This document shows positions 18-13,926 of a stretch of DNA of 64,000 nucleotides, one piece after another (the stretch's first letter is position 1; each line of letters begins with the position of its first letter). The position numbers and the translations under genes were made by a program. The stretch is taken from the IMG/VR virus record IMGVR_UViG_3300035494_000066. One strand, 5' to 3'. The stretch comes from a virus. Its lineage: Duplodnaviria > Heunggongvirae > Uroviricota > Caudoviricetes. The notes below the pieces were generated by a model. That model had not been told where the DNA came from and searched no databases. It was given only the letters and a program-made list of their open reading frames with translations.

Positions 18-93
18 TGGGGTGATGCATGGGACTCGAACCCATATCTGCCGGAGTCACATTCCGGAGCTCTACCATTAAGCTAGCACCACC
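18..93 (-). tRNA. tRNA-His (anticodon GTG), with encoded G-1 and C73
   Basis: Hand-folded cloverleaf on the minus strand. T-arm GGGTTCGAGTCCC, anticodon loop aTGTGAc, 8-bp acceptor with G-1, CCA encoded. Confidence 0.7.
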
Positions 94-229
94 ATAAACT
101 CTCCGTCGACGCCAACAGTATTGCACTGTTGCACGTTTCGTCTCTGAAAAGACTCATCAGGACGGCTGTCTTATTAATGTTTCTATATTATACAGCTGGT
201 ATACTATTATGTCAACTGCATTTTACATT

Positions 230-307
230 TGGCACCCTTTGTAGGATTTGAACCTACGACCTCCGAGTTCGAAGCACGGCGCTCTGGTCCAACTGAGCTA
301 AAAGGGC
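230..307 (-). tRNA. tRNA-Arg (anticodon TCG)
   Basis: Hand fold. Acceptor gcccttt/aaagggt, D-arm agctcagttggaccagagc, anticodon loop cTTCGAa, T-arm gtaggttcaaatcctac, CCA. Confidence 0.65.
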
Positions 308-319
308 ATATTTGTTATG

Positions 320-838
320 TTAATACGATTCGTACTGTAGTGTTTCGAGGTTTAACTTCTTACGCACATCTGTGAAGTACTGACAGTAATGTGTTGGCTT
401 TTTATAAACGCTAAACGCTTTAATAAAAGACATTGCATCGGCTTTGCGATGAAAGAATACAGTCATTGACTGAGTCTCATTTGCTCGGTATTCGGTGTTA
501 CCGATGCACCAGCCTTTTACGTTATCTTCGTCGTTCCGGTCTTTTACATTGCGATCGAGCCACTCTAATACGTGCGGCTTTAGATTTGGCACACAACGAG
601 TGCAGCACTTTGCAACTTCTTCATCAGACACATCAGGGTTAACTGATTGCATTGCAGATTTAAATCGATCAAACCCTTCAGTATCTAGGTATGGCTCTGC
701 GTTTGGATCAACAAGAGCATCCCAATCAGCGATATCAGAATCTACATATCCTTTCCAACTAACAAGATGGCGACAGTGATATACTTTATCATCCCAGTGA
801 CTATGATGACACCAGATGTGATTTTGTAGATAGTTCAT
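320..838 (-). CDS. hypothetical protein (172 aa), His/Cys-rich
   Basis: Long minus-strand ORF on the strand that carries the neighbouring genes. No recognisable domain. Confidence 0.45.
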   Translation of the reverse strand: MNYLQNHIWCHHSHWDDKVYHCRHLVSWKGYVDSDIADWDALVDPNAEPYLDTEGFDRFKSAMQSVNPDVSDEEVAKCCTRCVPNLKPHVLEWLDRNVKDRNDEDNVKGWCIGNTEYRANETQSMTVFFHRKADAMSFIKAFSVYKKPTHYCQYFTDVRKKLNLETLQYESY

Positions 839-2119
839 ACATCCCTCGAGGAAAGTTGTAAATTGACTAGAAATACTGCTGCGCGTGGTTGATTCTAAGA
901 TTTAGCAAGCGTGTACAGTAACATATCGTCGGTGCTGATTTTAACTGTTGTGCTTGCATACACTCTTGATGTTTTTTTGTTTTTCGAATCAACACGATAA
1001 ATTTTAATCGTCTTTTCGTGCGGCAGTGCGGCCACTACATAACATATTGAAATGCTGGCGTAATACGAAGCCCCTACATAGTCACCAGCGGTAATTTCCT
1101 TTCCTAACAGGTCAGTGTGAACATTCATGCTATATTAAGACAATTTGTTAGATTCAAATGCACGTTGTGACATACCGAAGAACATGTAGTGAAACCAACG
1201 TACATCACCGCTCTGGACTTTAATACGAAAACCGTTTTTGACTTTTTCGACAACCTCGTATGATTGTCCGTCAACAAGACCGCTCCATTTAAAATCGTCG
1301 CCGAGCATACGTGACCGTGCAATAATGTTCATATATGTTCTCCTTGACGTTCTAAGTTATGTGTTTATTATAAGACATGTGTTAGTGAAGGTCAATACTT
1401 TTTCTTACTTTAAGTAAGATCGGACGTAAAATCTGGCCTAGTATTCCAATGCTGTATGCATTCGCGCTTGCTATAACCGAGAATGGTAGCAGTGCACCCG
1501 CCGTAATGCTCTTGGCACACTATCTGCCAAAGCTGATTGCCTTCTGCGTCCTTCCTAGAAGCAGGATAAATTGTATCAATTGGGTCTTGATTATTTAGGT
1601 CATTTCCGCAGAACGGGCAAGGTAGCAAGTCGGCCATAGTTACTCATCTTCTAGTAAATCAAATTCAGCATTAAGTACAGTGAATGCATACTTCATTAAT
1701 TTGTGGAACGCAACCGGGTCTTCGTCTACTAAACGATTACCAACAGTCTCCATGTAGTATCCTTCGGAATCTTTCTTAAAGAACGCAATAGTAAAGCAGT
1801 ATTCTTTCATGTCAGGCATTCTCCAGCCTACAATTTCTGCTTCGCGATTCTCTATCCTCCGGAATTCTAAATCACCTACTCTCATATCAATCTGCCTTAA
1901 GTGTTGTTACTTTTGGTAATCGTCTTTTGGCCCAGCTGGGCGCACTGACCGAGATTGGTAATGTTGCTTAGCGTCTTCTCTCGATTTTTGTATGGTTCGC
2001 AACATTTACCGCACTGTATGTCTTTTTGGAGCAATCGCTGCTCTAGTGCTTCAGGAGAACTAAAGTCTTTACTGCTAATGTTTCTACAAATGCAAACTTT
2101 CATTATTATATCTTAAAGT

Positions 2120-2192
2120 TGGTAGCTCTGGGTGGAATCGAACCACCATTGCACGATTATCAGTCGTGTTTTCTACCGTTGAAATACAGAGC
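2120..2192 (-). tRNA. tRNA-Ile (anticodon GAT)
   Basis: Hand fold. Acceptor agctctg/cagagct, anticodon stem cacga/tcgtg, loop cTGATAa, T-arm ggtggttcgattccacc, CCA. Confidence 0.65.
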
Positions 2193-2199
2193 TAGTGAA

Positions 2200-2279
2200 T
2201 GGTGCCCACAGCAGGGGTCGAACCTGCATGTATCCAATTAACCTTTCTACGATTTCGTAGACCGAGGGTATATGTGGGC
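2200..2279 (-). tRNA. tRNA-like element with canonical acceptor and T-arm but irregular D/anticodon region (possible pseudo-tRNA or insert-bearing tRNA)
   Basis: Acceptor gcccaca/tgtgggc, T-arm gcaggttcgacccctgc and CCA are canonical. The 43-nt core contains a perfect ctacg-aaat-cgtag hairpin and no canonical 5-bp/7-nt anticodon arm. Confidence 0.35.
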
Positions 2280-2286
2280 ATTTAAT

Positions 2287-2362
2287 TGGCGACTGTGACG
2301 GGAGTCGAACCCGCACCAGACTGCTAGACAGGCAGTTATCCTTCCCAGAGGATCTCACAGCC
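2287..2362 (-). tRNA. tRNA-Asp (anticodon GTC), copy 1 (unusual T37)
   Basis: Hand fold. Acceptor ggctgtg/cacagtc, D atcc/ggat, anticodon arm actgc-cTGTCta-gcagt, T-arm gcgggttcgactcccgt, CCA. Confidence 0.55.
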
Positions 2363-2420
2363 AGAAACTTGGCCTTAAGCAGGAGCTACGCTCAACTGTA
2401 CTTAAGGTTACAAACTAATA

Positions 2421-2503
2421 TGGTTGGGGCAGTGGGATTCGAACCCGACATGCTCTCGCGACGGTGTTACAGACCGCTTCCTTTCCCAGAAGGAGTTACC
2501 CCA
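2421..2503 (-). tRNA. tRNA-Tyr (anticodon GTA), long variable arm, copy 1
   Basis: 83 nt. Anticodon arm gcggt-cTGTAac-accgt, long variable region. T-stem is weak (3 bp). CCA encoded. Confidence 0.5.
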
Positions 2504-2510
2504 ATTAAGC

Positions 2511-2586
2511 TGGTGCAGCCTCTCGGAATCGAACCGAGTTCTCTAATTCTTCAGACTAGCGTGAGGACCACCTTCACCAAAGCTGC
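2511..2586 (-). tRNA. tRNA-Phe (anticodon GAA), copy 1
   Basis: Hand fold. Acceptor gcagctt/aggctgc, D gtga/tcac, anticodon loop cTGAAga, T-arm ctcggttcgattccgag, CCA. Confidence 0.7.
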
Positions 2587-2591
2587 ATAAT

Positions 2592-2669
2592 TGGTCTCCC
2601 GGGTAGGATTCGAACCTACGACCACTCAGTTCCAAACCGAGTGCGCTAACCAGACTGCGCTACCGAGAG
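2592..2669 (-). tRNA. tRNA-Pro (anticodon TGG), copy 1
   Basis: Hand fold. Acceptor ctctcgg/ccgggag, D gcgc/gcgc, anticodon arm ctcgg-tTTGGaa-ctgag, T-arm gtaggttcgaatcctac, CCA. Confidence 0.65.
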
Positions 2670-2705
2670 TTTGTTCTATACTGATTCTATCAGTACTATT
2701 GTAAT

Positions 2706-2783
2706 TGGTCCGGATTGCAGGATTCGAACCTGCGACCCCTTGCTCCCAAAGCAAGTGCTCTGCACAAACTGAGCTAAACCCGG
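2706..2783 (-). tRNA. tRNA-Pro (anticodon TGG), copy 2
   Basis: Hand fold. Acceptor ccgggtt/aatccgg, D gctc/gagc, anticodon arm cttgc-tTTGGga-gcaag, T-arm gcaggttcgaatcctgc, CCA. Confidence 0.6.
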
Positions 2784-2790
2784 AATAAAA

Positions 2791-2865
2791 TGGTAGCTCC
2801 AACAAGAATCGAACTTGTATTTCACCGTTATCAGCGGTACGTTCTAGCCGTTGAACTATGGAGCT
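2791..2865 (-). tRNA. tRNA-Ile (anticodon GAT), copy 2
   Basis: Hand fold. Acceptor agctcca/tggagct, D gttc/gaac, anticodon arm taccg-cTGATaa-cggtg, T-arm acaagttcgattcttgt, CCA. Confidence 0.65.
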
Positions 2866-2871
2866 ATTATT

Positions 2872-2945
2872 TGGTGGACCGACGGGGAATCGAACCCCGA
2901 TCACTACAGTGCAAGTGTAGTATAATACCGTTATACTATCAGCCC
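2872..2945 (-). tRNA. tRNA-Ala (anticodon TGC) with G3:U70, copy 1
   Basis: Hand fold. Acceptor gggctga/tcggtcc carries a G3:U70 wobble (Ala identity). Anticodon arm ctaca-cTTGCac-tgtag, T-arm cggggttcgattccccg, CCA. Confidence 0.65.
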
Positions 2946-2980
2946 AAAACGTTTAAGTAAACTAATGCTTACTCTTAAAA

Positions 2981-3056
2981 TGGTATCCCGTAGGGGAATC
3001 GAACCCCTGTTAGCAGGTTGAAAACCTGCTGTCCTGACCGACTAGACGAACGGGAC
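2981..3056 (-). tRNA. tRNA-Glu (anticodon TTC), copy 1
   Basis: Strong resemblance to bacterial tRNA-Glu. gtcccgttcgtctag..., 3-bp D stem, anticodon arm gcagg-tTTTCaa-cctgc, T-arm aggggttcgattcccct, CCA. Confidence 0.75.
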
Positions 3057-3148
3057 ATTTAATAGTAACAGGGCAAGTCTACCTCTTGCTGTTAAGCGAA
3101 CTGTTGCACACACGTCAACTCCCCCGAAGGTTTTACAACGCTGTGCTC

Positions 3149-3224
3149 AGCTTATACCTGTTATAAATTGGCGGACCTGACGAGTTTCGATCTCGCTACC
3201 TCGACAGTGACAGTGTCGCGCTCT
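3149..3224 (-). tRNA. tRNA-Asp (anticodon GTC), copy 2 (T-loop has A54)
   Basis: Hand fold. Acceptor ggacctg/caggtcc, D gctc/gagc, anticodon arm cgaca-cTGTCac-tgtcg, T-arm gcgag-atcgaaa-ctcgt, CCA. Confidence 0.6.
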
Positions 3225-3332
3225 CCCGATTGAGCTACAGGTCCTTAAATTCTGACACCTATTCCGGCTTTTACGGCAACGTTTTTATTGCTGCTAGTGC
3301 CCAACAGCATGTTGCTTGATACTTCATGAATT

Positions 3333-3409
3333 TGGTGCAGCGAGTAGGAATTGAACCTACGACACCCTGGGCTTCAACCAAGTGCTCTACCGGACTGAGC
3401 TATCGCTGC
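3333..3409 (-). tRNA. tRNA-Phe (anticodon GAA), copy 2
   Basis: Hand fold. Acceptor gcagcga/tcgctgc, D gctc/gagc, anticodon arm cttgg-tTGAAgc-ccagg, T-arm gtaggttcaattcctac, CCA. Confidence 0.55.
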
Positions 3410-3410
3410 G

Positions 3411-3486
3411 TGGCGTTCCTGCAGGGACTCGAACCCTGTGCTGCGGAGTGAAAACCCGCTGATTTAACCACATAATCGACAGGAAC
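3411..3486 (-). tRNA. tRNA-Glu (anticodon TTC), copy 2
   Basis: Hand fold. Acceptor gttcctg/caggaac, D gatt/aatc, anticodon arm gcggg-tTTTCac-tccgc, T-arm cagggttcgagtccctg, CCA. Confidence 0.6.
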
Positions 3487-3492
3487 AAAAAT

Positions 3493-3568
3493 TGGTAGGA
3501 CCGGGCGGACTTGAACCGCCAACCACCCGCTTAAAAGGCGGATGCTCTAACCATTGAGCTACGATCCT
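3493..3568 (-). tRNA. tRNA-Lys (anticodon TTT)
   Basis: Hand fold. Acceptor aggatcg/cggtcct, D gctc/gagc, anticodon arm tccgc-cTTTTaa-gcggg, T-arm ggcggttcaagtccgcc, CCA. Confidence 0.7.
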
Positions 3569-3570
3569 AA

Positions 3571-3656
3571 TGGCTCCTCGGGTAGGCTTCGAACCTACAA
3601 TGCCTATCGGCGCCTGATTAACAGTCAGGTGACTTTACCAGTTTGTCTACCGAGGA
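3571..3656 (-). tRNA. type-II (long variable arm) tRNA with anticodon GTT; discriminator G73
   Basis: 86 nt. 3-bp D stem with 11-nt D loop, perfect anticodon arm cctga-cTGTTaa-tcagg, 14-nt variable arm, T-arm gtaggttcgaagcctac, CCA. This architecture is normally Ser/Leu/Tyr, not Asn. Confidence 0.5.
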
Positions 3657-3667
3657 ATTTTAAAAAT

Positions 3668-3752
3668 TGGTAGCGAGAGCAGGATTCGAACCTACGAAGC
3701 CATTGGCAATGGGTTATGAGCCCATTCACTTTGTCCGCTTGTATATCTCGCA
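3668..3752 (-). tRNA. type-II (long variable arm) tRNA with anticodon CAT; 1:72 mismatch; discriminator A73
   Basis: 85 nt. 3-bp D stem with 11-nt D loop, perfect anticodon arm atggg-cTCATaa-cccat, 13-nt variable arm, T-arm gtaggttcgaatcctgc, CCA. Confidence 0.5.
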
Positions 3753-3757
3753 ATAAT

Positions 3758-3841
3758 TGGTGGGCCAGGCTGGACTTGAACCAGCAGTGCTTTCGCGTCG
3801 GGTTTACAGCCCGATAGGGTTACCAATTTTCCTACTGACCC
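3758..3841 (-). tRNA. tRNA-Tyr (anticodon GTA), type II, copy 2
   Basis: 84 nt. Acceptor gggtcag/ctggccc, anticodon arm tcggg-cTGTAaa-cccga (canonical Tyr loop), 12-nt variable arm, T-arm gctggttcaagtccagc, CCA. Confidence 0.7.
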
Positions 3842-3891
3842 GTAACTGAAGTAGCTAGATTTGAATCTATAACATACTCCAATGAAAAATT

Positions 3892-3965
3892 TGGTGGAGA
3901 CATGGAGAATCGAACTCCAATCACTACAGTGCAAGTGTAGTATAATACCGTTATACTATATCCCC
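3892..3965 (-). tRNA. tRNA-Ala (anticodon TGC) with G3:U70, copy 2
   Basis: Body is nearly identical to the copy at 2872-2945 (shared ~50-nt core). Acceptor and T-stem differ (ggggata/tgtctcc, tggagttcgattctcca). CCA encoded. Confidence 0.65.
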
Positions 3966-3967
3966 AT

Positions 3968-4043
3968 TGGCTCCCTGGACTGGATTCGAACCAGTAGCGA
4001 CTTGGTTAAAGCCAAGTGCCCCTACCTATAGGGCCCCCAGGGA
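3968..4043 (-). tRNA. tRNA-Lys-like with 6-nt anticodon loop (cTTTaa)
   Basis: All four arms are otherwise canonical: acceptor tccctgg/ccaggga, D gccc/gggc, T-arm actggttcgaatccagt, CCA. The perfect anticodon stem cttgg/ccaag encloses only 6 nt, ctttaa. Confidence 0.45.
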
Positions 4044-4044
4044 A

Positions 4045-4120
4045 TGGTGCTCGGTGATGGAATCAAACCATCCTGAAACTTGCTTGTAAGGCAAGCGCCT
4101 CCTCAATCGGCCAACCGAGC
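4045..4120 (-). tRNA. tRNA-Val (anticodon TAC)
   Basis: Hand fold. Acceptor gctcggt/accgagc, anticodon arm cttgc-cTTACaa-gcaag, T-arm gatggtttgattccatc, CCA. Confidence 0.65.
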
Positions 4121-4124
4121 AGTT

Positions 4125-4200
4125 TGGTTGTAGTGGTGGGATTTGAACCCACAAACCTTCACATTATGAATGTGCTGCTCTACCATTGAGCTACACTACA
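4125..4200 (-). tRNA. tRNA-Met (anticodon CAT), elongator-type (1:72 paired)
   Basis: Hand fold. Acceptor tgtagtg/cactaca, D gctc/gagc, anticodon loop tTCATaa, T-arm gtgggttcaaatcccac, CCA. Confidence 0.65.
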
Positions 4201-4733: not shown

Positions 4734-6197
4734 TTATTTCAAATTTTTAATCGGTATTAGTTCGGGATGTGCGCTGTAAAAATCGGTGTTGCGCTTCTGG
4801 TCAAACGACTCAGTGCTAGTTACAAATTTGTGGCTTAGATCATTTCGATTATTAAACTTGCGTAAGAAGTTAGTAACCCAATTTAGCTCAGTGTAGTTAC
4901 TACTCTGATACTTTTCGATTGCTAAATCCCTGAGCCATTGAGGAGCATTAGCTACACTAAACTCTGCAGGATCTGTAACAAAACCCCAAACTAAATTAGC
5001 GTTAAGTGTTTTCGATAGAGACACAACATTGTCTAGATACAATAAATTTTGTGTATTAACAGTAACAGAAAAACTCAACTTAGCATGTGCATTCTGCATG
5101 CAGAACTTAGAAAAATCGTTAAGATTTTCTGCAACTTCGTTCCATTTACCACCGCGTTGGATTTCAAATCGACGACCGACGTCATCGATGCTTGCTATGA
5201 TTTCTATAGATTTGAACCTCTGCAATAGTTGCATAATGTCTGGTTTATACACACTACCGTTTGTGTTGATGCTAATGCTCATGTTGTGTGCTTGCTTTAA
5301 ATCGATTAGCCTTGTTAACAACTTCTCTAAGTTAGGATTAATCAACGGTTCACCGCCTAGTAAGTGAACACTTTCGCAACTGTTGAAATCAATTTTAGAC
5401 AGAAAATCTTCCTCTAGAGGAATTTTCCCAAAGACTTCAAATGCTCTGAGATTGTTTTGTTCTTTAGCAACTCGTGTGCTTGCGTCAGGATTGCATATTC
5501 GACATTTAAAGTTACAAAATGAAGTAGCCGACACAGTTATGTCCCGGAGCTCAATGTTATCAAACCACCGAGTGTTGCAAGCGTGTAAAAACTTTTCAAT
5601 AAACTGTTGCCGTCTGCTAATTGCTCCTTGCTCTTCTTTTCTCCAGCATTCATTGCAGCCTGGGTGCTTAGTATTGCTGCTTATAGCAGCCCTAATCGAA
5701 GCGTACTGACTGTTATCCTCAATTGAGAAATTTCTATCTGTGATAGTAACGCTGTTAGAGTACTCACAGCACGGTTTTGCACTTTTATTGCTGCGAATGT
5801 TAATCATTCCGTACGGTGCAGGACAAAATGTTTCGGATAGTGCTGGGAAAGAGTCTAGCTGTATTGGTGCAGTTATAGTTCCTTCATAATTAACTACTTC
5901 AAAATCGATGTCTGAATAATCAACTATGTTGTTTCTGACGTATTCTATTTCAGCAGTTAAGTCTTGGGGGGTTTCGAGACGAACAAAACACAGTGAAATG
6001 TCGGCACGTAAAGCAGCAAATGCTAAATGGGCAATGTGCTGCCATGTCATCGGGTGCGATGTATATAGGACAATACGCTCGTCTGGTCTAAAATACGGTT
6101 TTGTGATAGCTTGAAAATAACGATACGCAGTTGAGTGTACATCACCTAATACTTCGCTCAAGTCTGCCTTACTAACTATATTAATTTCTGCGGTCAT
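4734..6197 (-). CDS. radical SAM enzyme, SPASM/twitch-type, with N-terminal Cys-rich domain (487 aa)
   Basis: CxxxCxxC motif (CNFKCRIC), GGEPL-like motif, NTNGS motif. N-terminal CxxCW...RRQQ motif is shared with the rSAM at 18300-19610. Confidence 0.75.
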   Translation of the reverse strand: MTAEINIVSKADLSEVLGDVHSTAYRYFQAITKPYFRPDERIVLYTSHPMTWQHIAHLAFAALRADISLCFVRLETPQDLTAEIEYVRNNIVDYSDIDFEVVNYEGTITAPIQLDSFPALSETFCPAPYGMINIRSNKSAKPCCEYSNSVTITDRNFSIEDNSQYASIRAAISSNTKHPGCNECWRKEEQGAISRRQQFIEKFLHACNTRWFDNIELRDITVSATSFCNFKCRICNPDASTRVAKEQNNLRAFEVFGKIPLEEDFLSKIDFNSCESVHLLGGEPLINPNLEKLLTRLIDLKQAHNMSISINTNGSVYKPDIMQLLQRFKSIEIIASIDDVGRRFEIQRGGKWNEVAENLNDFSKFCMQNAHAKLSFSVTVNTQNLLYLDNVVSLSKTLNANLVWGFVTDPAEFSVANAPQWLRDLAIEKYQSSNYTELNWVTNFLRKFNNRNDLSHKFVTSTESFDQKRNTDFYSAHPELIPIKNLK

Positions 6198-8520: not shown

Positions 8521-8595
8521 TTGGCCTGCCTACCAGGACTCGAACCCGGATTAAAGGAGTAGAAATCCTCTGTGTTATCCGTTACACTATAGGCA
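8521..8595 (-). tRNA. tRNA-Arg (anticodon TCT)
   Basis: Hand fold. Acceptor ctgccta/taggcag, D gtgt/acac, anticodon arm gagga-tTTCTac-tcctt, T-arm ccgggttcgagtcctgg, CCA. Confidence 0.65.
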
Positions 8596-8825
8596 GGTGA
8601 AGTTTTACTTTGTGTGCTGTTTCCAGCGATTTAAATCTCGGAGCAGTTTATCTGCTCGATCAAATACATTTTGTAACATTAACCGTTCGTAGTCAGTTGG
8701 GTCATAACTAGGCGTGCCAACTGTTTCTTCTACTACCGCAGATCGAAGTTCTGCAATTTGAAGCAGCTTGTTGTCAATCCAACTTGTAGTATGGATGCTC
8801 ATTATTACTACTCCTTTTTAATGTA

Positions 8826-8911
8826 TGGTACCGATGAACGGACTCGAACTGTTACGCTATCTCTAGCAGAAGATTTTGAATCTCCTGTGTCTACCATTCC
8901 ACCACATCGGC
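8826..8911 (-). tRNA. tRNA-Leu (anticodon CAA), type II
   Basis: 86 nt. Acceptor gccgatg/catcggt, 3-bp D stem, anticodon arm ggaga-tTCAAaa-tcttc, 15-nt variable arm, T-arm aacagttcgagtccgtt, CCA. Confidence 0.6.
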
Positions 8912-9005
8912 ATAGTATGCGTTTTTACTTATCAGCGTAAGGCCGCACCCCCTGCTAATGAACTTTTTTAACGTAGTGTTCGTCTACGTTCACGGGCGTG
9001 TTGTT

Positions 9006-9186
9006 TGGTGCAAACGACGGGACTCGAACCCGCAATTACAGTTAACAAGGGCATTACTCCTTGCTAGTACAAGATTGGAAAAGCAGTCATCCCGCCTTGA
9101 AACCATGCTCCTGTGCTACTCGCTGTTAGGATTTTACTCCTCACTGTCCTTTTTCAGTGTGCGTATGCCATTTCCGCCACGTTTGC
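9006..9186 (-). ncRNA. tRNA-like RNA: canonical T-arm and 3' acceptor half with CCA, plus a matching 5' acceptor strand 181 nt away (insert of ~105 nt)
   Basis: 3' part gcgggttcgagtcccgt-cgtttgc-a-cca at 9006-9035. The complementary gcaaacg lies at 9180-9186. The interior contains a hairpin cactg-aaaaagga-cagtg. Confidence 0.3.
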
Positions 9187-9196
9187 ATGTTAAAAT

Positions 9197-9270
9197 TGGT
9201 GGGTCTGCCTGGAATCGAACCAGGACCGAGCGGTTATGAGCCGCCTGCTCGACCGTCAAGCTACAGACCC
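9197..9270 (-). tRNA. tRNA with CAT anticodon (Met elongator or Ile2-type; 1:72 paired)
   Basis: Hand fold. Acceptor gggtctg/cagaccc, D gctt/gagc, anticodon arm ggcgg-cTCATaa-ccgct, T-arm cctggttcgattccagg, CCA. Confidence 0.65.
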
Positions 9271-9963
9271 TTAAACTTTATTACTTGCGTAGTATACGCA
9301 TTTTTATTTATTATGTCAAGTATTTTTACATCACACTATACAAGCAGGCGTCTTAGCTGCTCTAGTATTAAAGTAACACCGCATTCTAGACCAACTCGGT
9401 ATAGTTACTTCCTAGACTTCTCTAGTTGACACAATACATGGTCATATAACTGATCGTGTTATATCGCGTCATGTCACTTGCTGTGTGCCGCAGCTATACA
9501 ATGTGATGTAAAAATACGCCTCGCGAAGCGTCACTAGTACCAATTTATCCAGTGATCTCATCTACACCAATGGAGGTCACTGTGATCCGGTGGTAATCGC
9601 CATATGCCTGATCCTGTATTAGGGCACCTGGTTTTACTGGGTTGTAGTTGCCGGTGCTGATCTCCGGCTTGCTGGTTGTGACATCTTAGGTTCCGTTTCA
9701 AACCATACAGCGCTGTATGTACGCGGTTCCCAGCGGCAGTCGGGCCAGCGACCATCTCAAGTCTTGAGATTCTTCGTGCGAGGATAAGTCGCACTTCATC
9801 TCGCGCATCAGCCTGCGCATTTACTACAACTAGAAGCATACTGCTGTTAGTGCTTGTATCGTCCGCACTCTTATACTCAGACAGTCTGCCGCTGCTCTCA
9901 CACCAACTCGCGTATTCTGGCGCAACAGCAATATGCTTGTAGTTTTAGTAAAATACAGTAATC

Positions 9964-10040
9964 TGGTGCCAGTAGTGGGATTCGAACCCACACTTTACAG
10001 AATCTCGACCTGCTACCTCTGCCAATTGGGCTATACTGGC
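9964..10040 (-). tRNA. tRNA-like (type undetermined; possibly degenerate or Leu-GAG-like)
   Basis: Perfect acceptor gccagta/tactggc, T-arm gtgggttcgaatcccac and CCA. D and anticodon arms fold poorly by hand. Confidence 0.35.
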
Positions 10041-10056
10041 TATCTCTTATATTGTT

Positions 10057-10085
10057 ATTGTATTTTCTATGTGCTTTTGTGTCAA
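10057..10085 (-). promoter_or_regulatory. sigma70-like promoter TTGACA-17-TACAAT directed into the tRNA-like element at 10040
   Basis: Minus-strand reading gTTGACAcaaaagcacatagaaaaTACAATaac. Consensus -35 box with 17-bp spacer. Confidence 0.5.
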
Positions 10086-10633
10086 CTACTTTTTGAGAGT
10101 TTTTACTGTTTCTTTTAGCTCGCATTCTTTAATTTTACGGATTGTAATGTAAGCTCCATAAATCATTACTGCTGACATAAACACAATCCCAGCGACACTA
10201 GGAATTACAGTCGACAACGTGTATGGATCGATATTTGGCATAGTTAGTCCTGTTGCAGGTTAGTATAATTTCAGAATGGAAGAATTAGCGCAACAATTGT
10301 GGAATTATACTTGCCTTTGTGCTTAGAGTAGCCTTTTTTAATAGCCTTTTTCTTATCAGTATGTGTAACGGCTTTGTTGTACTTTAATGCATTCTTTGCA
10401 ACGTAGTTTCTGTTATTCATCGTCTATCTCGTTTTTATTTTCTTTTTTGCTATGTTGCTGCTTGAGCTCGTGTGCTTGTTTGATCACTGATGCCTCGCAC
10501 GAAACGTTGATATCTCGCAGTCGAAAACCGCATGCTTGAATGTAGTTAATAGCAGTCCTGTAGTCCATTTGCAGCTCCGTTTAGTTTCTTATTTACCTGA
10601 ATATTATAGCAGAAACAGACTACAGGTCAACCT

Positions 10634-11080
10634 TTAATGTGATTTTTTCTCTTCGTCGTAGACACGTTTCCGCAGTGATGACGAACTAAACGAATGTTCG
10701 CGATCATTGAACACACACTTGTCCATGTGACCTGAGATGTCTTTGCCTGTAAAGTGCTTGGTTTTGTATTCATCGCCAAGAATACGAACATCATAGTCTA
10801 AGCACAGCAACAAGTCGTGCAAATCCTTCTCTGTGTGGTACACAATTGTGTGGTCTACATAACGTGAGGATGCTACTTGTATTTGGCGCTCAACGATCGA
10901 CTGTACTGGCTTATTCTTTGACGGACGATCTGCACTCGGGTCAATTTGGATTGCTACAATCAAATAGTCACAATGTTTCTTTGCGTCCCGGAACATCAAG
11001 TGATGCCCTGCATGACACAGGTCAAACGCACCAGCAGTAATGCCTACAGTCAAATTCTGTCTATTAGGAATGTCGATCAT
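10634..11080 (-). CDS. cytidylyltransferase-family nucleotidyltransferase (TagD / RfaE domain II-like, HxGH)
   Basis: GAFDLCHAGHHLMF (HxGH), DYLIVAIQID, ILGDEY and a C-terminal SSSSLR motif resemble glycerol-3-phosphate cytidylyltransferase. 148 aa. Confidence 0.6.
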   Translation of the reverse strand: MIDIPNRQNLTVGITAGAFDLCHAGHHLMFRDAKKHCDYLIVAIQIDPSADRPSKNKPVQSIVERQIQVASSRYVDHTIVYHTEKDLHDLLLCLDYDVRILGDEYKTKHFTGKDISGHMDKCVFNDREHSFSSSSLRKRVYDEEKKSH

Positions 11081-11409
11081 AAGTCTCTCTCATATTTTTC
11101 AAAAATAGCGATGAACACCAAGTCATCAGAGCTGCTATCGTTGTATACACGGTGGAAAGCGCCATCAGGTATCATAAAAAGAGAACCGCTCTCAACTTGG
11201 TAGAAATCGTTGTCGATTTGTATGCGGCCTGTCCCGGAATGAAAGATGTAAACCTCTTCAAGCCCTGGATGAGAGTGGCCGCGTGTCTGCATCTCAGGAT
11301 GCAATGTTGTTTTTGATACTGTTAGATGATTTAGGAACGTGTTATCTTCGAGTAAGTAAGTCTCGTTGTCTTTGATAACGGTTCCGTTTAAGTTTTGGAT
11401 TGATGTCAT
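11077..11409 (-). CDS. cupin-domain protein (110 aa)
   Basis: GHSHPGLEEVYIFHSGTGRI cupin motif. Start overlaps the upstream gene stop by 4 nt (coupled). Confidence 0.55.
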   Translation of the reverse strand: MTSIQNLNGTVIKDNETYLLEDNTFLNHLTVSKTTLHPEMQTRGHSHPGLEEVYIFHSGTGRIQIDNDFYQVESGSLFMIPDGAFHRVYNDSSSDDLVFIAIFEKYERDL

Positions 11410-11439
11410 ATTAATTGTGTATTATCTTTTTACCCGATA

Positions 11440-12075
11440 CTAAAGTATACTGCTTAGGAAAAGCTGGATATCCAGCTTTTCCTTAGAGCTTGCAGCAACT
11501 ATCTCAATAACCCGGGCGCGACCAACTACTCGCCCGCCGATTTTAAAGCATACACCGCGGTCAGTTTTTTCGATTGCAATTGGAGTTTTACGAGGGTTGC
11601 TGCCGCGGCTGTAAATGGTCATAGCAGCCGAACCGCCTTTTTGTACAGCTTCTTTCACAGCATTAACTGCAGCAGCAGCCTGCTTTGCACCAACTTCTAC
11701 ATCTGCATCAATTGCAGCTTGTTCAGCGTCACGCGCTGCAGCGTATTCGGCTTCTTTTTTAGCCCGGAACTCTGCATGCATTTTGCCTAGCTTGTCTAAG
11801 TCAATTGCTGCTGCAACTTCGGTGATTTCTTTAACTGCGTCAGCAAAATAAGAATATGCTTCAACATCGGACTCTACTTCTTTAGTGTCGCGTCCACCGG
11901 AAGAAACTGAAATTTCACAAGACCATTTCTCATCGCCGAACCCTACTGGACGAATATACAACCGGATCACGTCCGACCAAAAGCCTTTTACTTTTACTGA
12001 AACAGTTGGACGGGATTCAACAAGTTCTTCGTAGCTCGGAACAGAGTAAGAGTAGTTGTTGCTCATTTCTATCAC
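11440..12075 (-). CDS. hypothetical protein with Ala/Glu-rich central region (211 aa)
   Basis: Minus-strand ORF preceded by the TATAAT-leader promoter motif at 12083-12105. Confidence 0.5.
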   Translation of the reverse strand: MIEMSNNYSYSVPSYEELVESRPTVSVKVKGFWSDVIRLYIRPVGFGDEKWSCEISVSSGGRDTKEVESDVEAYSYFADAVKEITEVAAAIDLDKLGKMHAEFRAKKEAEYAAARDAEQAAIDADVEVGAKQAAAAVNAVKEAVQKGGSAAMTIYSRGSNPRKTPIAIEKTDRGVCFKIGGRVVGRARVIEIVAASSKEKLDIQLFLSSIL

Positions 12076-12144
12076 CTCAGTCGCTTAACTTATGCTTGTA
12101 TTATAGCACCGAGTGATACGAATGCAAGTGGTTTTTGCAATTAT

Positions 12145-12414
12145 CTAATTCTTTTCAACTAACTCAAGCAGTACGGATAGTCCGTGTGGGTTAGTTCCGT
12201 GCACAGTCCAGCGCTGACTTATGTCGTTAACGTTAATGCGGGCGTCTAACTCGTACGACACACTGTCAGACATTGTTACAACAAGCTTACAATATGCATT
12301 GTCGACTTTTTGAAACCCAGAAACATTAACGCTGTTGATTGTTAGCTCAGGACTGGTTGGCTTTCTTCTTTTGTACCAACTTTGCGGCATTACTTTAAAT
12401 GTGTATTCGGACAT
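12145..12414 (-). CDS. hypothetical protein (89 aa)
   Basis: Minus-strand ORF in the gene array. Confidence 0.4.
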   Translation of the reverse strand: MSEYTFKVMPQSWYKRRKPTSPELTINSVNVSGFQKVDNAYCKLVVTMSDSVSYELDARINVNDISQRWTVHGTNPHGLSVLLELVEKN

Positions 12415-12432
12415 TTAGTACCTTGTACAGCA

Positions 12433-12780
12433 CTACAACACCTTTAGTAATTTGAGTGCGTTTTTAGTTAATTGAACGTATGTGTAGTTTGTCGAGTACG
12501 GCTTGAACCCGTTGTACCGCTTCGTGGGAGAACTGAGTGATTCTCGTATACGGACTAAGTATCCTGTTTTGATTAGTTTTTGGAAATCTGCATCTCGGTT
12601 AATGACAAAGCAGTATCTGCGATTAACGGGTATTCGGAGATCACGACCGTAATCGTTAATGAACTTGAGTATAGCGTAGCGTCGAGGTTGACCCGACGAC
12701 ATTTGGCATATTTTGCGAAACGCTTCTGCTTTTGTTTCAACATGTATCGATTGGTTGAATGTCTTTTGCAAGTGCTTCAT
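12433..12780 (-). CDS. hypothetical basic protein (115 aa)
   Basis: Minus-strand ORF. Lys/Arg-rich. Confidence 0.4.
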   Translation of the reverse strand: MKHLQKTFNQSIHVETKAEAFRKICQMSSGQPRRYAILKFINDYGRDLRIPVNRRYCFVINRDADFQKLIKTGYLVRIRESLSSPTKRYNGFKPYSTNYTYVQLTKNALKLLKVL

Positions 12781-12794
12781 ACTATACTCGAAAT

Positions 12795-12870
12795 TGGCAG
12801 GTCGGGCGAGATTCGAACTCGCAACCTTGGTGTTTGGAGCACCCTGTTCTGCCGTTGGAACTACCGACCT
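12795..12870 (-). tRNA. tRNA-Trp (anticodon CCA)
   Basis: Hand fold. Acceptor aggtcgg/ccgacct, D gttc/gaac, anticodon loop cTCCAaa, T-arm gcgagttcgaatctcgc, CCA. Confidence 0.65.
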
Positions 12871-13057
12871 ATTTTTCTGTTATATCGAACTGACGCGTAG
12901 TATTTACACGTCTTAGCATACGAACTGTCGCTGTGACAGCTGTAATCTGCTTTAATGCACAACCCGTTTCGTGTAGTGCCCCAGTCCTTTATGCGAATAA
13001 AGTTAGTGCAGTTCCCACATGTTCTTCCAGTTGGCATATACATTTACTCTAAAATTG

Positions 13058-13131
13058 GCAGGGGTACCAAGAATTGAACTTGGACCACTGGAGTCAAAGG
13101 CCAGTGCTCTACCATTAAGCTATACCCCTAA
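13058..13131 (-). tRNA. tRNA-Gln (anticodon TTG)
   Basis: Hand fold. Acceptor aggggta/tacccct, D gctt/gagc, anticodon loop cTTTGac, T-arm ccaagttcaattcttgg, CCA. Confidence 0.65.
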
Positions 13132-13136
13132 ATTTG

Positions 13137-13211
13137 GAGGCGTGTGTGGGAATCTAACCCACAAAAACATGATTTGCAGTCATGCCCGTTAACATTCCGG
13201 CAACACGCCAA
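13137..13211 (-). tRNA. tRNA-Cys (anticodon GCA), U73
   Basis: Hand fold. Acceptor ggcgtgt/acacgcc, anticodon arm catga-cTGCAaa-tcatg, T-arm gtgggttagattcccac, discriminator T, CCA. Confidence 0.6.
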
Positions 13212-13356: not shown

Positions 13357-13385
13357 AGTATATTTATCTCTTACGTTCTTGTCAA
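13357..13385 (-). promoter_or_regulatory. sigma70-like promoter TTGACA-17-TATACT upstream of the Cys/Gln/Trp tRNA island
   Basis: Minus strand cagTTGACAagaacgtaagagataaaTATACTata. Confidence 0.5.
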
Positions 13386-13909: not shown

Positions 13910-13926
13910 TCTCCTTAATAATTATC

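What the first reader, a model, noticed from the sequence alone, without database searches (positions are those of the whole stretch)
18..4200. Very dense 23-gene tRNA array with many duplicated isoacceptors of divergent sequence
About 23 minus-strand tRNA genes sit in 4.2 kb with tiny spacers. By hand folding, Ile-GAT, Asp-GTC, Pro-TGG, Phe-GAA, Glu-TTC, Ala-TGC, Tyr-GTA and Lys-TTT each appear twice. In each pair the acceptor, D and T arms clearly differ, so these are not tandem repeats.

The two Ala copies share an identical roughly 50-nt core but carry different acceptor and T stems. Counting the two distal islands, at least 28 tRNA or tRNA-like genes are present. Even so, no canonical Gly, Ser, Thr or Asn (type I) was found.

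This pattern suggests two tRNA sets of different origin, or a set diverging under selection such as escape from host anticodon nucleases. The window also encodes Pnk-like and Rnl-like tRNA-repair enzymes.
Basis: seen in the sequence. Interest (0 to 1): 0.65.

Follow-up and report, generated by a model that had tools for sequence, protein, structure and literature searches.

The report
Jumbo-phage tRNA array with diverged duplicates
This is the tRNA gene cluster of an uncultivated giant phage; having two very different genes for the same anticodon turns out to be normal for phage tRNA clusters, but the "23rd gene" belongs to a widespread tRNA type with a rearranged fold that gene finders miss and that I could not find described.

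Summary
ARAGORN finds 22 minus-strand tRNA genes in 18-4200 and 29 in the window, all with encoded CCA. Seven anticodons occur twice: Ile-GAU, Asp-GUC, Tyr-GUA, Phe-GAA, Pro-UGG, Ala-UGC, Glu-UUC. Pair identity is 60-86%, against 57% for unrelated tRNAs here. Of 146 stem pairs compared, 63 differ by compensatory double changes and 4 are broken, so these are old, intact paralogs. The claimed second Lys is wrong: it has a 6-nt anticodon loop and an Asn-like acceptor end.

The pattern is ordinary. Among 35 other viral loci with at least 15 tRNAs, 17 have duplicated anticodons, and 95% of such pairs are under 75% identical. Anticodon loops within pairs differ no more than chance predicts. Gene order does not support two colinear sets, and nuclease escape stays untestable without a host.

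More interesting by-products:
- The "23rd gene" (2200-2279) is a non-canonical tRNA-Arg(ACG). It belongs to an 80-nt virus-specific family with only Ile and Arg anticodons and strong covariation. The D-arm strands are re-ordered around the anticodon arm. It is unannotated in GenBank phages, and ARAGORN and Rfam miss it.
- A canonical type I hammerhead lies between a perfect promoter and tRNA-His.

The parts
4125..4200 (-). tRNA-Met(CAU), first gene of the array
   Evidence: ARAGORN; Rfam 68.7 bits.
4045..4120 (-). tRNA-Val(UAC)
   Evidence: 50.3 bits.
3968..4043 (-). tRNA with a 6-nt anticodon loop CUUUAA. It has U1-A72, G73 and G8, an Asn-like acceptor end.
   Evidence: Rfam 46.9 bits. Identical in L003.
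3892..3965 (-). tRNA-Ala(UGC) copy 1, with G3-U70. Its 40-nt core at 3920-3959 is identical to 2900-2939.
3758..3841 (-). tRNA-Tyr(GUA) copy 1, class II, loop CUGUAAA
   Evidence: Rfam 50.5 bits.
3668..3752 (-). Class II (long variable arm) tRNA with a CAU anticodon. It has initiator-like features: a U1xU72 mismatch, G2-C71/C3-G70/G4-C69, A73, and three G-C pairs closing the anticodon stem.
   Evidence: Similar class II CAU tRNAs occur in other viral arrays.
3571..3656 (-). Class II tRNA-Asn(GUU) with U1-A72 and G73
   Evidence: This type occurs in about 80 of 120 sampled viral loci, including phages Acibel004 and 44RR2.8t.
3493..3568 (-). tRNA-Lys(UUU), the only clear Lys
   Evidence: 71.8 bits.
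3411..3486 (-). tRNA-Glu(UUC) copy, G73, loop UUUUCAC
3333..3409 (-). tRNA-Phe(GAA) copy, loop UUGAAGC (G37)
   Evidence: 91% identical to the Vibrio phage VCPH tRNA-Phe.
3169..3244 (-). tRNA-Asp(GUC) copy with the majority loop CUGUCAC
2981..3056 (-). tRNA-Glu(UUC) copy, G1-U72, A73, loop UUUUCAA
2872..2945 (-). tRNA-Ala(UGC) copy 2, with G3-U70. It differs from copy 1 only by 5 compensatory base-pair swaps in the acceptor and T stems.
   Evidence: Logan contigs break at 2929 and 2939.
2791..2865 (-). tRNA-Ile(GAU) copy
2706..2783 (-). tRNA-Pro(UGG) copy with the majority loop UUUGGGA
2592..2669 (-). tRNA-Pro(UGG) copy with the variant loop UUUGGAA (A37)
2511..2586 (-). tRNA-Phe(GAA) copy, loop CUGAAGA
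   Evidence: Rfam 53.7 bits.
2421..2503 (-). Deviant tRNA-Tyr(GUA) copy. It has A8, and its T stem has either two mismatches or a bulged C. It is below Rfam's tRNA threshold.
   Evidence: (31.3 bits to tRNA-Sec only).
2287..2362 (-). tRNA-Asp(GUC) copy with A8 and the variant loop CUGUCUA (U37)
   Evidence: Rfam 44.2 bits.
2200..2279 (-). Non-canonical 80-nt tRNA-Arg(ACG). It has no D arm 5' of the anticodon arm. A helix 11-13:37-39 encloses the anticodon arm and is followed by a D-loop-like UAAUUGGAUA.
   Evidence: (93.1 bits to model R1).
2120..2193 (-). tRNA-Ile(GAU) copy
   Evidence: 69 bits.
230..307 (-). tRNA-Arg(UCG). Six small ORFs (320-2103) separate it from the main block.
187..215 (-). 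Perfect sigma-70 consensus promoter, TTGACA-17 nt-TATAAT
   Evidence: 12 of 12 matches.
103..165 (-). Type I hammerhead ribozyme candidate. Stem I is 161-165 with 103-107. CUGAUGA is at 154-160 and stem II at 140-153. The GAAA junction is at 136-139; its last base A136 (A15.1) opens stem III, which runs 109-136. Predicted cleavage is after C108, 14 nt upstream of G-1 of tRNA-His.
   Evidence: (1 hit against 0 in 300 random 64-kb sequences).
18..93 (-). tRNA-His(GUG) with encoded G-1 at position 93; last gene of the cluster
   Evidence: No tRNA in the next 9.7 kb (L001).
8522..13209 (-). Distal islands: Arg(UCU) 8522-8596, Leu(CAA) 8826-8911, a tRNA-like element 9006-9186, Met(CAU) 9197-9270, class I Leu(GAG) 9964-10040, Trp 12795-12870, Gln 13056-13129, Cys 13135-13209.

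Best explanation
The region is the main tRNA array of an uncultivated jumbo phage. The longest contig carrying it is 302 kb, and its replication genes are T4-like at about 36% identity.

Shown:
- It encodes 22 cloverleaf tRNAs, one non-canonical tRNA-Arg(ACG), and a hammerhead in the leader of tRNA-His.
- Seven anticodons are each represented by two old paralogs that both keep a tRNA fold.
- Such diverged same-anticodon pairs are usual in phage tRNA arrays.

Inferred:
- Arrays grow by repeated acquisition or ancient duplication and by shuffling of single tRNA genes.
- Near-identical neighbours would be lost by recombination, so mostly diverged copies persist.
- The Ala pair is a mosaic. A contiguous 40-nt conversion or recombination tract (positions 7-46) was homogenised. 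The flanks keep the roughly 70% identity typical of the other pairs.

Function (inferred from established phage biology): the array gives the phage its own tRNA supply when host tRNAs are limiting, degraded or cleaved. Duplicates add redundancy and sequence variety. Whether that variety is selected cannot be decided here.
For: - tRNA calls and structures.
- Pair identity 0.60-0.86 against a background of 0.57.
- 63 compensatory double changes against 4 broken pairs among 146 stem pairs.
- Array sequence identical in independent samples, with assembly breaks at the Ala repeat.
- Phage context: topoisomerase II 36% identical to T4-like phages, RNA ligase and endolysin, Acb3, ClpP and FolE, a 302-kb contig, Thg1-like and thymidylate synthase genes downstream.
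- Baseline: 17 of 35 viral loci with at least 15 tRNAs have duplicated anticodons, 4 have at least five, one has seven, median pair identity is 0.61, and 95% are below 0.75.
- Codon use does not track duplication. Pro is 3.3% of codons and duplicated; Ser, Thr and Gly are 5.4-6.7% and absent.
- Published precedent: XacN1 carries 26 canonical tRNAs for 20 amino acids per terminal repeat, plus Thg1 and PNKP (PMC5852040). tRNA array units favour redundancy (PMC4758250).
Against: - The baseline loci were chosen through an Asn-tRNA pattern, so they are not a random sample of phage arrays.
- No diverged relative of this phage was found, so conservation of both copies over time could not be tested.
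- The gene-conversion account of the Ala pair is parsimonious but unproven. Selection for altered acceptor and T stems would give the same picture.
- Tyr 2421-2503 and the 6-nt-loop tRNA may be non-functional.
- Expression and charging are untested.
Confidence: 0.75

Rival explanations
1. Anti-defence diversification. Each pair holds one ordinary copy and one copy altered in the anticodon loop or body. Host tRNA-cleaving defence enzymes (PrrC, VapC, colicin-like nucleases, PARIS, retron effectors) then cannot disable both.
For: - In Asp, Tyr and Pro, one copy has the majority viral loop (CUGUCAC, CUGUAAA, UUUGGGA). The other has a recurrent minority loop (CUGUCUA, CUGUAAC, UUUGGAA).
- Both Phe copies have G37.
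- tRNA-repair-type genes are present: an RNA ligase, an AAA_33 kinase and a Thg1-like gene.
- The hypothesis is published for other phages (PMC10264068; PMC11555353, PMC11464382).
Against: - The Ile and Ala pairs have identical loops.
- Two identical loops of seven matches random draws from the viral loop pool. Across other arrays, 43 of 89 pairs have identical loops against 47.1 expected.
- Divergence covers the whole molecule, not only the loops.
- Host, host tRNAs and host nucleases are unknown.
Confidence: 0.3
2. Two tRNA sets of different origin, for example matched to the aminoacyl-tRNA synthetases of different hosts, were joined in one genome.
For: - Divergence in Phe, Tyr and Asp pairs equals that of unrelated tRNAs.
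- The Glu pair differs in its discriminator base (A versus G) and in the 1-72 pair.
- Asp 2287 and Tyr 2421 share an unusual D arm and A8.
- The four lowest-scoring elements (2200-2586) are adjacent.
Against: - Gene order is not colinear between the two halves.
- Pro-Pro are neighbours.
- The Ile and Phe pairs share most acceptor base pairs.
- Nearest-neighbour comparison with 1189 viral tRNAs gives 0.68-0.83 for all copies, with no split into two sources.
- No donor array was found.
Confidence: 0.15
3. The second copies are pseudogenes or decaying remnants.
For: - Tyr 2421-2503 fails Rfam's tRNA threshold and has 3 non-pairs.
- Asp 2287 scores 44 bits and has U37.
- The 3968-4043 gene has a 6-nt anticodon loop. 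Such calls are 5 of 1189 in other viral arrays.
Against: - Six of the seven second copies keep all stems through compensatory changes.
- All keep an encoded CCA.
- The A8 change in Asp and Tyr is accompanied by U at the first D-loop position.
- The variant loops recur in many phages.
- The sequence is invariant across samples.
Confidence: 0.1
4. Gene dosage: the duplicated anticodons are those the phage needs most.
For: The classic codon-compensation view (PMC5852040). Ala, Asp, Glu and Ile are each 6-7% of codons.
Against: - Pro (3.3%), Phe and Tyr (4.3% each) are duplicated. Leu, Val, Ser, Thr and Gly are not, and the last three have no phage tRNA in the window.
- Dosage does not need diverged sequences.
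Confidence: 0.15

Closest known systems
tRNA array units of large phages (Xanthomonas phage XacN1, mycobacteriophage cluster C1; T5 and KVP40 from my own knowledge)
   Same: - Dense run of tRNA genes on one strand.
- Several anticodons present more than once, with odd or pseudo-tRNAs among them.
- Accompanied by Thg1-like, kinase and ligase genes (PMC5852040; PMC10264068).
   Different: - No sequence relative of this array exists in GenBank phages or IMG/VR.
- Seven duplicated anticodons among 29 tRNAs is at the upper end of the sampled range.
- Gly, Ser and Thr are missing from the window.
Nuclease-insensitive phage tRNAs (van den Berg et al. 2023; PARIS-neutralising T5 tRNA; retron-evading tRNAs)
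   Same: Variant anticodon-loop positions 32, 37 and 38 in several copies, alongside RNA-repair genes.
   Different: That concept rests on comparison with the host's tRNAs and known host nucleases. Neither is available here, and within-pair loop differences are at chance level.
Mitochondrial D-arm-lacking tRNAs (nematodes, mites; mt tRNA-Ser(AGY))
   Same: The gene at 2200-2279 and its family lack a D hairpin 5' of the anticodon arm. They still have acceptor, anticodon and T arms.
   Different: - The viral family is not a reduced tRNA at 80 nt.
- It keeps a D-stem-like helix (11-13:37-39) and a D-loop-like UAAYUGGNNA segment, but 3' of the anticodon arm.
- It occurs in DNA phages of bacteria and only with Ile and Arg anticodons.
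Hammerhead ribozymes in phage transcripts (Perreault et al. 2011) and theta (HDV-like) ribozymes next to viral tRNAs (Kienbeck et al. 2024)
   Same: A small self-cleaving ribozyme motif in an intergenic phage region next to a tRNA (PMC3088659; PMC10879173).
   Different: - Theta ribozymes are HDV-like (PMC10879173) and, from my own recollection of that paper, lie 3' of the tRNA. Here a type I hammerhead sits 5' of tRNA-His, behind its own promoter.
- It scores below the Rfam gathering thresholds (20 bits).
T4 tRNA cluster with the stable RNAs C and D (from my own knowledge, not checked here)
   Same: tRNA-like RNAs of unknown role embedded in a phage tRNA cluster, comparable to 9006-9186 and 3968-4043.
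   Different: No sequence similarity was tested. The 2200-2279 gene has a proper anticodon loop and looks like a decoding tRNA.

Membership tests
tRNA array unit (Tran et al. 2015, PMC4758250) | At least 20 tRNA genes in one region | tested here: met
   22 ARAGORN tRNAs plus 1 non-canonical tRNA in 18-4200; 20 plus 1 in 2120-4200.
tRNA array unit (Tran et al. 2015, PMC4758250) | Density of at least 2 tRNA genes per kb | tested here: met
   5.3 per kb over 18-4200 and about 10 per kb over 2120-4200.
Recent tandem or segmental duplication | Near-identical copies, colinear order, similarity extending into the spacers | tested here: not met
   Identities are 0.60-0.71 for six pairs. The order is not colinear. 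Only a 71-nt Ala match at 90% was found, with no flank similarity.
tRNA pseudogenes | Broken stems, lost conserved positions, sub-threshold covariance-model score | tested here: not met
   Only 4 of 146 stem pairs are broken and 28 of 29 pass Rfam. This is inconclusive for Tyr 2421-2503 (31 bits) and for the 6-nt-loop tRNA 3968-4043. tRNAscan-SE pseudogene scoring was not available.
Nuclease-insensitive phage tRNAs | Phage tRNA differs from the host's isoacceptor at the nuclease's recognition or cleavage site | not testable with these tools
   Host unknown. Within-pair loop differences (5 of 7) are at chance level.
Nuclease-insensitive phage tRNAs | Rescue of infection in the presence of a tRNA-targeting defence | not testable with these tools
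   Requires experiments.
Hammerhead ribozyme | Conserved core (C3 U4 G5 A6 N7 G8 A9, G12 A13 A14, A15.1-U16.1, H17) with G10.1-C11.1 | tested here: met
   Read directly in the sequence. The pattern occurs once in the window.
Hammerhead ribozyme | Three helices around the core | tested here: met
   The minimum-free-energy fold gives the three-way junction. The descriptor hits once in the window and 0 times in 300 random 64-kb sequences.
Hammerhead ribozyme | Rfam gathering score | tested here: not met
   20.0 bits to Hammerhead_3 (threshold 48.5) and 19.7 bits to RAGATH-1-hammerhead (threshold 56.3).
Hammerhead ribozyme | Self-cleavage | not testable with these tools
   Needs in vitro transcription or mapping of 5'-OH ends.
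Canonical cloverleaf tRNA (applied to 2200-2279) | D arm between the acceptor and anticodon arms | tested here: not met
   ARAGORN standard mode and the Rfam tRNA model give no call. Only 7 nt separate the acceptor stem from the anticodon stem.
80-nt rearranged-D-arm viral tRNA family (defined here, model R1) | Fixed geometry: acceptor 1-7:70-76, helix 11-13:37-39, anticodon stem 16-19:27-30, 7-nt loop with U33 and A37, motif GAAAGGNUAANUGGNNACAUG, T arm | tested here: met
   The window element scores 93.1 bits. 120 of 122 motif occurrences fit the geometry. Covariation score is 0.928 against 0.234 in shuffles.
80-nt rearranged-D-arm viral tRNA family (defined here, model R1) | Acts as an aminoacylated, decoding tRNA | not testable with these tools
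   Indirect evidence only. Anticodons are Ile or Arg alone. A at the position-20 equivalent occurs in 37 of 37 Arg types and A73 in all Ile types. In 112 of 120 cases it is the only gene for its anticodon in the locus.

The most novel reading that the evidence does not exclude
The gene at 2200-2279 represents a virus-specific class of functional tRNAs whose fold is a topological rearrangement of the cloverleaf, and I found no description of it.

The proposed rearrangement:
- The strand that pairs like the D-stem 3' strand comes first.
- The anticodon arm is nested inside that helix.
- The D-stem 5' strand and a D-loop-like UAAYUGGNNA follow, occupying the place of the variable loop.
- This could rebuild the L-shape with different chain connectivity.

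The class is used only for Ile (UAU, GAU, CAU) and Arg (ACG, UCU, CCU, UCG). It keeps the ArgRS A20 determinant in the relocated loop.

Together with class II Asn and initiator-like tRNAs, class I Leu and diverged duplicates, it would mean that phages systematically re-engineer tRNA bodies. They would stay readable by synthetases and ribosomes while perhaps escaping host enzymes that recognise standard tRNA shape.
Probability: 0.45. Interest if true: 0.85.

Novelty: new member of a known kind. Interest (0 to 1): 0.45.

Why it matters
As posed, the finding matters little. It adds one more jumbo-phage tRNA array, and it shows with numbers that deeply diverged same-anticodon genes are the rule in phage arrays. 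Such pairs should therefore not by themselves be read as evidence for nuclease escape or for two origins.

The by-products matter more.
- If the 80-nt Ile/Arg family is a working tRNA, the view quoted in a 2024 paper (PMC11551756) needs revising. [quoted passage not shown]
- Phage tRNA inventories would be systematically undercounted. ARAGORN detects 0 of 92 family members, and the elements are unannotated in 77 Streptomyces phages and one crAss-like phage.
- It would offer a natural test case for how IleRS, ArgRS, EF-Tu, RNase P and the ribosome tolerate a re-wired tRNA core.
- A hammerhead placed between a consensus promoter and tRNA-His suggests ribozyme-assisted tRNA 5' processing in phages. 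A second example cuts exactly at the 5' end of a phage tRNA-Tyr.

Tried and rejected
**Search for relatives of this phage, to test conservation of both copies.** None gave a syntenic array.
- Megablast and blastn against GenBank phages found only generic tRNA similarity.
- An exact search for the Ala core in IMG/VR found nothing.
- Protein-anchored scans of IMG/VR used the 487-aa radical-SAM, 334-aa and 213-aa neighbours and found nothing.
- The Thg1-like protein gave 17 loci, none with a syntenic array.
- A JGI metagenome scan found nothing.
- Homologues of the 172-aa ORF inside the array number 56, but they sit in unrelated phages.

**Origin by nearest neighbour.** Comparison with 1189 viral tRNAs was uninformative, with all best matches at 0.68-0.83.

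**Codon usage as an explanation for duplicates.** Rejected.

**Class-switched tRNAs as novelties.** Rejected. I first took the class II Asn(GUU), the class II CAU tRNA and the class I Leu(GAG) to be novel. They are common in viral arrays.

**Ochre-suppressor reading of the 6-nt-loop tRNA.** Not excluded but unsupported. TAA is the commonest stop codon, 45 of 87.

**The 181-nt tRNA-like element at 9006-9186.** A scan of 1743 deletion variants gave no clean intron-containing tRNA, only an 8-nt loop lacking U33.

**Longer spacers.** They show no tRNA remnants. The 35-, 36- and 50-nt spacers hold simple hairpins.

**PNK.** No full Pnkp was found among about 40 ORFs scanned.

**tRNAscan-SE.** Not available.

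Full report
**1. What is in the sequence**

ARAGORN finds 29 tRNA genes in the window. All are on the minus strand, and 22 lie in 18-4200. Rfam's tRNA model passes its gathering score for 28 of them. The exception is Tyr 2421-2503, which reaches only 31 bits against the tRNA-Sec model.

All 29 encode their CCA end. The main block 2120-4200 holds 20 tRNAs plus one tRNA-like gene in 2081 nt. Thirteen of its 20 spacers are 7 nt or shorter, and seven are 11-112 nt. Six small ORFs (320-2103) then separate it from tRNA-Arg(UCG) and tRNA-His.

A scan for 'T arm + 7-bp acceptor stem + N + CCA' recovers 27 of the 29 tRNAs on the minus strand. It misses only Tyr 2421-2503, whose T stem is irregular, and Cys, whose T loop departs from the pattern. 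Apart from two weak matches elsewhere (6 of 7 acceptor pairs and 4 of 5 T-stem pairs), it adds just two elements, 2200-2279 and 9006-9186.

**2. The sequence is real and is phage**

The same array is 100% identical in contigs from independent samples. The only difference anywhere is an A6/A7 run at 972-978, inside a small ORF. Three Logan assemblies end at 2929 or 2939, at or 10 nt inside the 5' edge of the 40-nt segment shared by the two Ala genes. That is what a genuine repeat does to a de Bruijn assembly.

The longest contig carrying the 172-aa ORF of the array is 302,565 bp. The window encodes:
- T4-type topoisomerase II, 36% identical to Aeromonas T4-like phages
- RNA ligase, endolysin and radical-SAM enzymes
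- GTP cyclohydrolase I, ClpP and the anti-CBASS protein Acb3
- an AAA_33 kinase and a HIT protein

Just downstream of tRNA-His lie thymidylate synthase and a Thg1-like gene. No DNA-level relative exists in GenBank phages.

**3. The duplicates**

Seven anticodons occur twice: Ile-GAU, Asp-GUC, Tyr-GUA, Phe-GAA, Pro-UGG, Ala-UGC and Glu-UUC. Global identities are 0.86 (Ala), 0.71 (Ile), 0.68 (Pro), 0.67 (Glu), 0.65 (Asp), 0.63 (Tyr) and 0.60 (Phe). The 396 pairs of different-anticodon tRNAs in this window average 0.57, with a 95th percentile of 0.64.

Stem by stem, 146 base pairs were compared:

| Outcome | Count |
|---|---|
| Identical | 71 |
| Changed on one side, pairing kept | 8 |
| Changed on both sides, pairing kept | 63 |
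| Broken in either copy | 4 |

Three of the four broken pairs are in Tyr 2421. Both members of each pair are therefore under selection for a tRNA fold. They are old paralogs or independent acquisitions, not tandem repeats and, with the possible exception of Tyr 2421, not pseudogenes.

The Ala pair is special. Positions 7-46 are identical, and all 10 differences form 5 compensatory pair swaps in the acceptor and T stems. G3-U70 is kept in both copies. A single contiguous conversion tract over a pair that is otherwise about 71% identical explains this most simply.

**4. The claimed second Lys**

The gene at 3968-4043 has a 6-nt anticodon loop, CUUUAA. It carries U1-A72 and G73. Among other viral tRNAs, Asn(GUU) typically has U1 and G73. 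Lys(UUU) has G1 or A1 with A73, and none has U1 with G73. The gene is therefore not a plain Lys duplicate. Loops of 6 or 8 nt are rare in viral arrays, 5 of 1189. Its function is open.

**5. Is the pattern unusual?**

A pattern scan of IMG/VR brought in 120 viral loci holding 1189 ARAGORN tRNAs. Among the 35 loci with at least 15 tRNAs:
- 17 have at least one duplicated non-CAU anticodon
- 7 have at least three
- 4 have at least five
- 1 has seven

The 102 same-anticodon pairs have median identity 0.61, 95% are below 0.75, and 1% are above 0.95. Diverged isoacceptor duplicates are thus the norm in phage arrays. This window is at the high end in number and typical in kind. One caveat applies: the loci were selected by an Asn-tRNA pattern.

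The literature agrees. XacN1 has 26 canonical tRNAs for 20 amino acids per repeat, plus suppressors, a pseudogene, Thg1 and PNKP. tRNA array units favour redundancy.

**6.

- *Two sets.* Gene order in the two halves is not colinear, and the two Pro genes are neighbours. Nearest-neighbour identities to the 1189 viral tRNAs are 0.68-0.83 for all copies, with no partition into two sources.
- *Nuclease escape.* Five of seven pairs differ at loop positions 32, 37 or 38. In Asp, Tyr and Pro, one copy has the majority viral loop and the other a recurrent minority loop. Both Phe copies have G37. That fits the published idea. However, two identical loops out of seven is what random draws from the viral pool give. 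In other arrays, 43 of 89 pairs have identical loops against 47.1 expected. So there is no signal of selection for different loops within pairs. With the host unknown, the hypothesis stays untested.
- *Codon usage.* It does not explain which anticodons are doubled.
- *Repair genes.* The Rnl-like gene is confirmed. 'Pnk-like' is only a small AAA_33 kinase.

**7. Apparent oddities that are ordinary for phages**

Carriers include Acinetobacter phage Acibel004 and Aeromonas phage 44RR2.8t.
- Class II CAU and UAU tRNAs and class I tRNA-Leu are also recurrent.
- The class II CAU tRNA here (3668-3752) has a 1-72 mismatch, G2-C71/C3-G70/G4-C69, A73 and three G-C pairs next to the anticodon loop. By textbook criteria these are initiator features.

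**8. The 23rd gene**

The element at 2200-2279 has a 7-bp acceptor stem, a T arm, A73 and CCA, but no D arm. Homologues turned up in other viral arrays.

Of 122 occurrences, 120 fit one fixed 80-nt geometry:
- acceptor stem 1-7:70-76
- a 3-bp helix 11-13:37-39 that encloses the anticodon arm
- a 4-bp anticodon stem 16-19:27-30
- a 7-nt loop with invariant U33 and A37
- T arm 53-57:65-69

*Anticodons.* The 92 distinct sequences carry only Ile anticodons (UAU 45, GAU 9, CAU 1) and Arg anticodons (ACG 20, UCU 11, CCU 4, UCG 2).

*Covariation.* On 27 diverse members, 98.8% of cells pair, against 64.7% in shuffles. The covariation score is 0.928, against 0.234 in shuffles and 0.12-0.16 for slid partners. 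Pair 11-39 shows C-G 16, A-U 9, G-C 1 and U-A 1. In the crAss-like member, pair 12-38 becomes U-A.

*D-loop equivalence.* After the helix comes U-A-A-Y-U-G-G-N-N-A, which reads like a D loop (A14, G18 G19, A21). The base right after GG is the equivalent of position 20. It is A in 37 of 37 Arg-type members and U in 54 of 55 Ile-type members. That matches the established A20 identity element of ArgRS. All Ile-type members have A73.

*Detection and annotation.*
- ARAGORN detects 0 of 92, and Rfam has no matching family.
- The covariance model R1 finds exactly one member in the window, at 93.1 bits. It finds members in about 10 of 99 loci that were not selected by the motif.
- GenBank carries the element in 77 Streptomyces phages and in the crAss-like Kehishuvirus 'tikkala'. 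In every one of the 40 records listed nothing is annotated under the match; the other 40 were not shown. In 'tikkala' it fills a 90-nt gap between tRNA-Trp and tRNA-Met.
- In 596 Gb of bacterial and archaeal genomes, only 11 motif hits fit the geometry. All are on contigs of metagenome-assembled genomes, about half of them within 8-kb stretches holding 7-27 tRNAs, which looks phage-like.
- In 112 of 120 cases it is the only gene for its anticodon in the locus, as is the case here for Arg(ACG).

*Reading.* I take it to be a working tRNA with re-ordered D-arm strands. This is an inference; no expression or charging data exist. Three literature searches and a 2020 review of non-canonical tRNAs gave no description of it. 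The library is incomplete, so prior publication cannot be excluded.

**9. Hammerhead**

A complete hammerhead lies between a perfect TTGACA-17-TATAAT promoter (215-187) and tRNA-His. Its parts are:
- stem I, CCGUC/GACGG, extended by a second 5-bp helix beyond a 4x4 internal loop
- the CUGAUGA core
- stem II, GUCU/AGAC
- the GAAA core
- a long stem III
- a GUC cleavage site after position 108

The free-energy fold gives the same junction. A descriptor hits once in the window and never in 300 random 64-kb sequences. Rfam scores are sub-threshold at 20 bits, although the alignment to RAGATH-1-hammerhead runs end to end.

Cleavage would leave a 14-nt 5'-OH leader before G-1 of tRNA-His. In another viral contig (L055), a hammerhead cuts exactly at nucleotide 1 of a tRNA-Tyr, and the tRNA's own acceptor strand forms stem I. 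Ribozyme-assisted 5' processing of phage tRNAs is therefore a reasonable hypothesis.

**10. Verdict**

- As a tRNA array with diverged duplicates, this is a new member of a known kind.
- Its most valuable content is the non-canonical tRNA-Arg(ACG) and the family it reveals, followed by the hammerhead in the tRNA-His leader.

Noticed in passing
window 2200-2279 (minus); also L057:10605-10684, L090:1416-1495, L081:5506-5585, L271:1195-1274 (Streptomyces phage Jay2Jay), L272:1495-1574 (Kehishuvirus 'tikkala'): An 80-nt non-canonical tRNA family. It carries Ile or Arg anticodons only and has its D-arm strands re-ordered around the anticodon arm. It occurs in at least 118 viral loci, is unannotated in GenBank phages, and is missed by ARAGORN and Rfam. 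The window member is tRNA-Arg(ACG).
   Followed up: yes
window 103-165 (minus), promoter 187-215: A canonical type I hammerhead ribozyme motif sits directly behind a perfect sigma-70 promoter. Predicted cleavage is 14 nt upstream of G-1 of tRNA-His. Rfam scores are sub-threshold.
   Followed up: partly
L055:5866-5902 (minus), tRNA-Tyr 5777-5865: In an unrelated 127-kb viral contig, a hammerhead (HH9 model 26.4 bits, E 1e-4) abuts a tRNA-Tyr. Predicted cleavage creates the tRNA's exact 5' end, and stem I is formed with the tRNA's acceptor strand.
   Followed up: partly
window 9006-9186 (minus): A 181-nt tRNA-like element lies 10 nt after tRNA-Met. It has a 7-bp acceptor stem, a Leu-like class II D arm, a T arm and A73-CCA. 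About 110 nt of structured RNA, and an 8-nt loop without U33, stand where the anticodon and variable arms should be. It is unexplained.
   Followed up: partly
window 3968-4043 (minus): A tRNA with a 6-nt anticodon loop CUUUAA, G8, and Asn-like U1-A72 and G73. It is identical in an independent JGI contig. It could be a decoy, an unusual decoder or a dead gene.
   Followed up: partly
window 3571-3656, 3668-3752, 9964-10040 (minus); loci L036-L155: Swaps of structural class are common in viral arrays: class II tRNA-Asn(GUU), class II initiator-like tRNA(CAU) and class I tRNA-Leu(GAG). In the sampled loci I counted 85 class II Asn, 10 class II CAU, 12 class II UAU and 42 class I Leu.
   Followed up: partly
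window 2287-2362 and 2421-2503 (minus): The variant Asp and Tyr copies share an unusual D arm, UCCU-(U)CUGGGA(A)-AGGA. They have A8 instead of U8, with U as the first D-loop base. This may be a swapped 8-14 tertiary pair.
   Followed up: no
L120:4448-4744 and L038:2590-2867: Two viral tRNA arrays contain a bacterial class A RNase P RNA gene, at 149 and 143 bits.
   Followed up: no
L001:7516-8349, 9638-11826, 12365-12610 (downstream of the window start): The phage encodes a Thg1-like protein. It also encodes a Trp-halogenase-like flavoprotein next to a Methyltransf_9/23 protein, which could be a tRNA U34-modification pair, and a YqeY-domain protein.
   Followed up: no
window 16383-17054, 45359-46225, 4734-6197, 18300-19610: GTP cyclohydrolase I and three radical-SAM proteins are present. 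They may belong to a 7-deazaguanine or queuosine-type pathway, which would be relevant to the Q34 tRNAs (Asp, Tyr, Asn, His) in the array.
   Followed up: no
window 27993-28751; 13382-14427: An Acb3 anti-CBASS protein is present (E 2e-60). Two adjacent ORFs of 166-175 aa, of unknown function, lie at 13382-14427; one shows a weak L7/L12 C-terminal domain match.
   Followed up: no
window 2946-2980, 2670-2705, 3842-3891 (minus): The 35-, 36- and 50-nt spacers each hold one clean 8-9-bp hairpin, with z-scores of -3.6, -3.4 and -2.8. They may be processing signals.
   Followed up: no
window 972-978: An A7 run in the window reads as A6 in contigs L003 and L005. This homopolymer difference lies inside the 77-aa ORF 895-1128 and is the only difference between samples.
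   Followed up: yes
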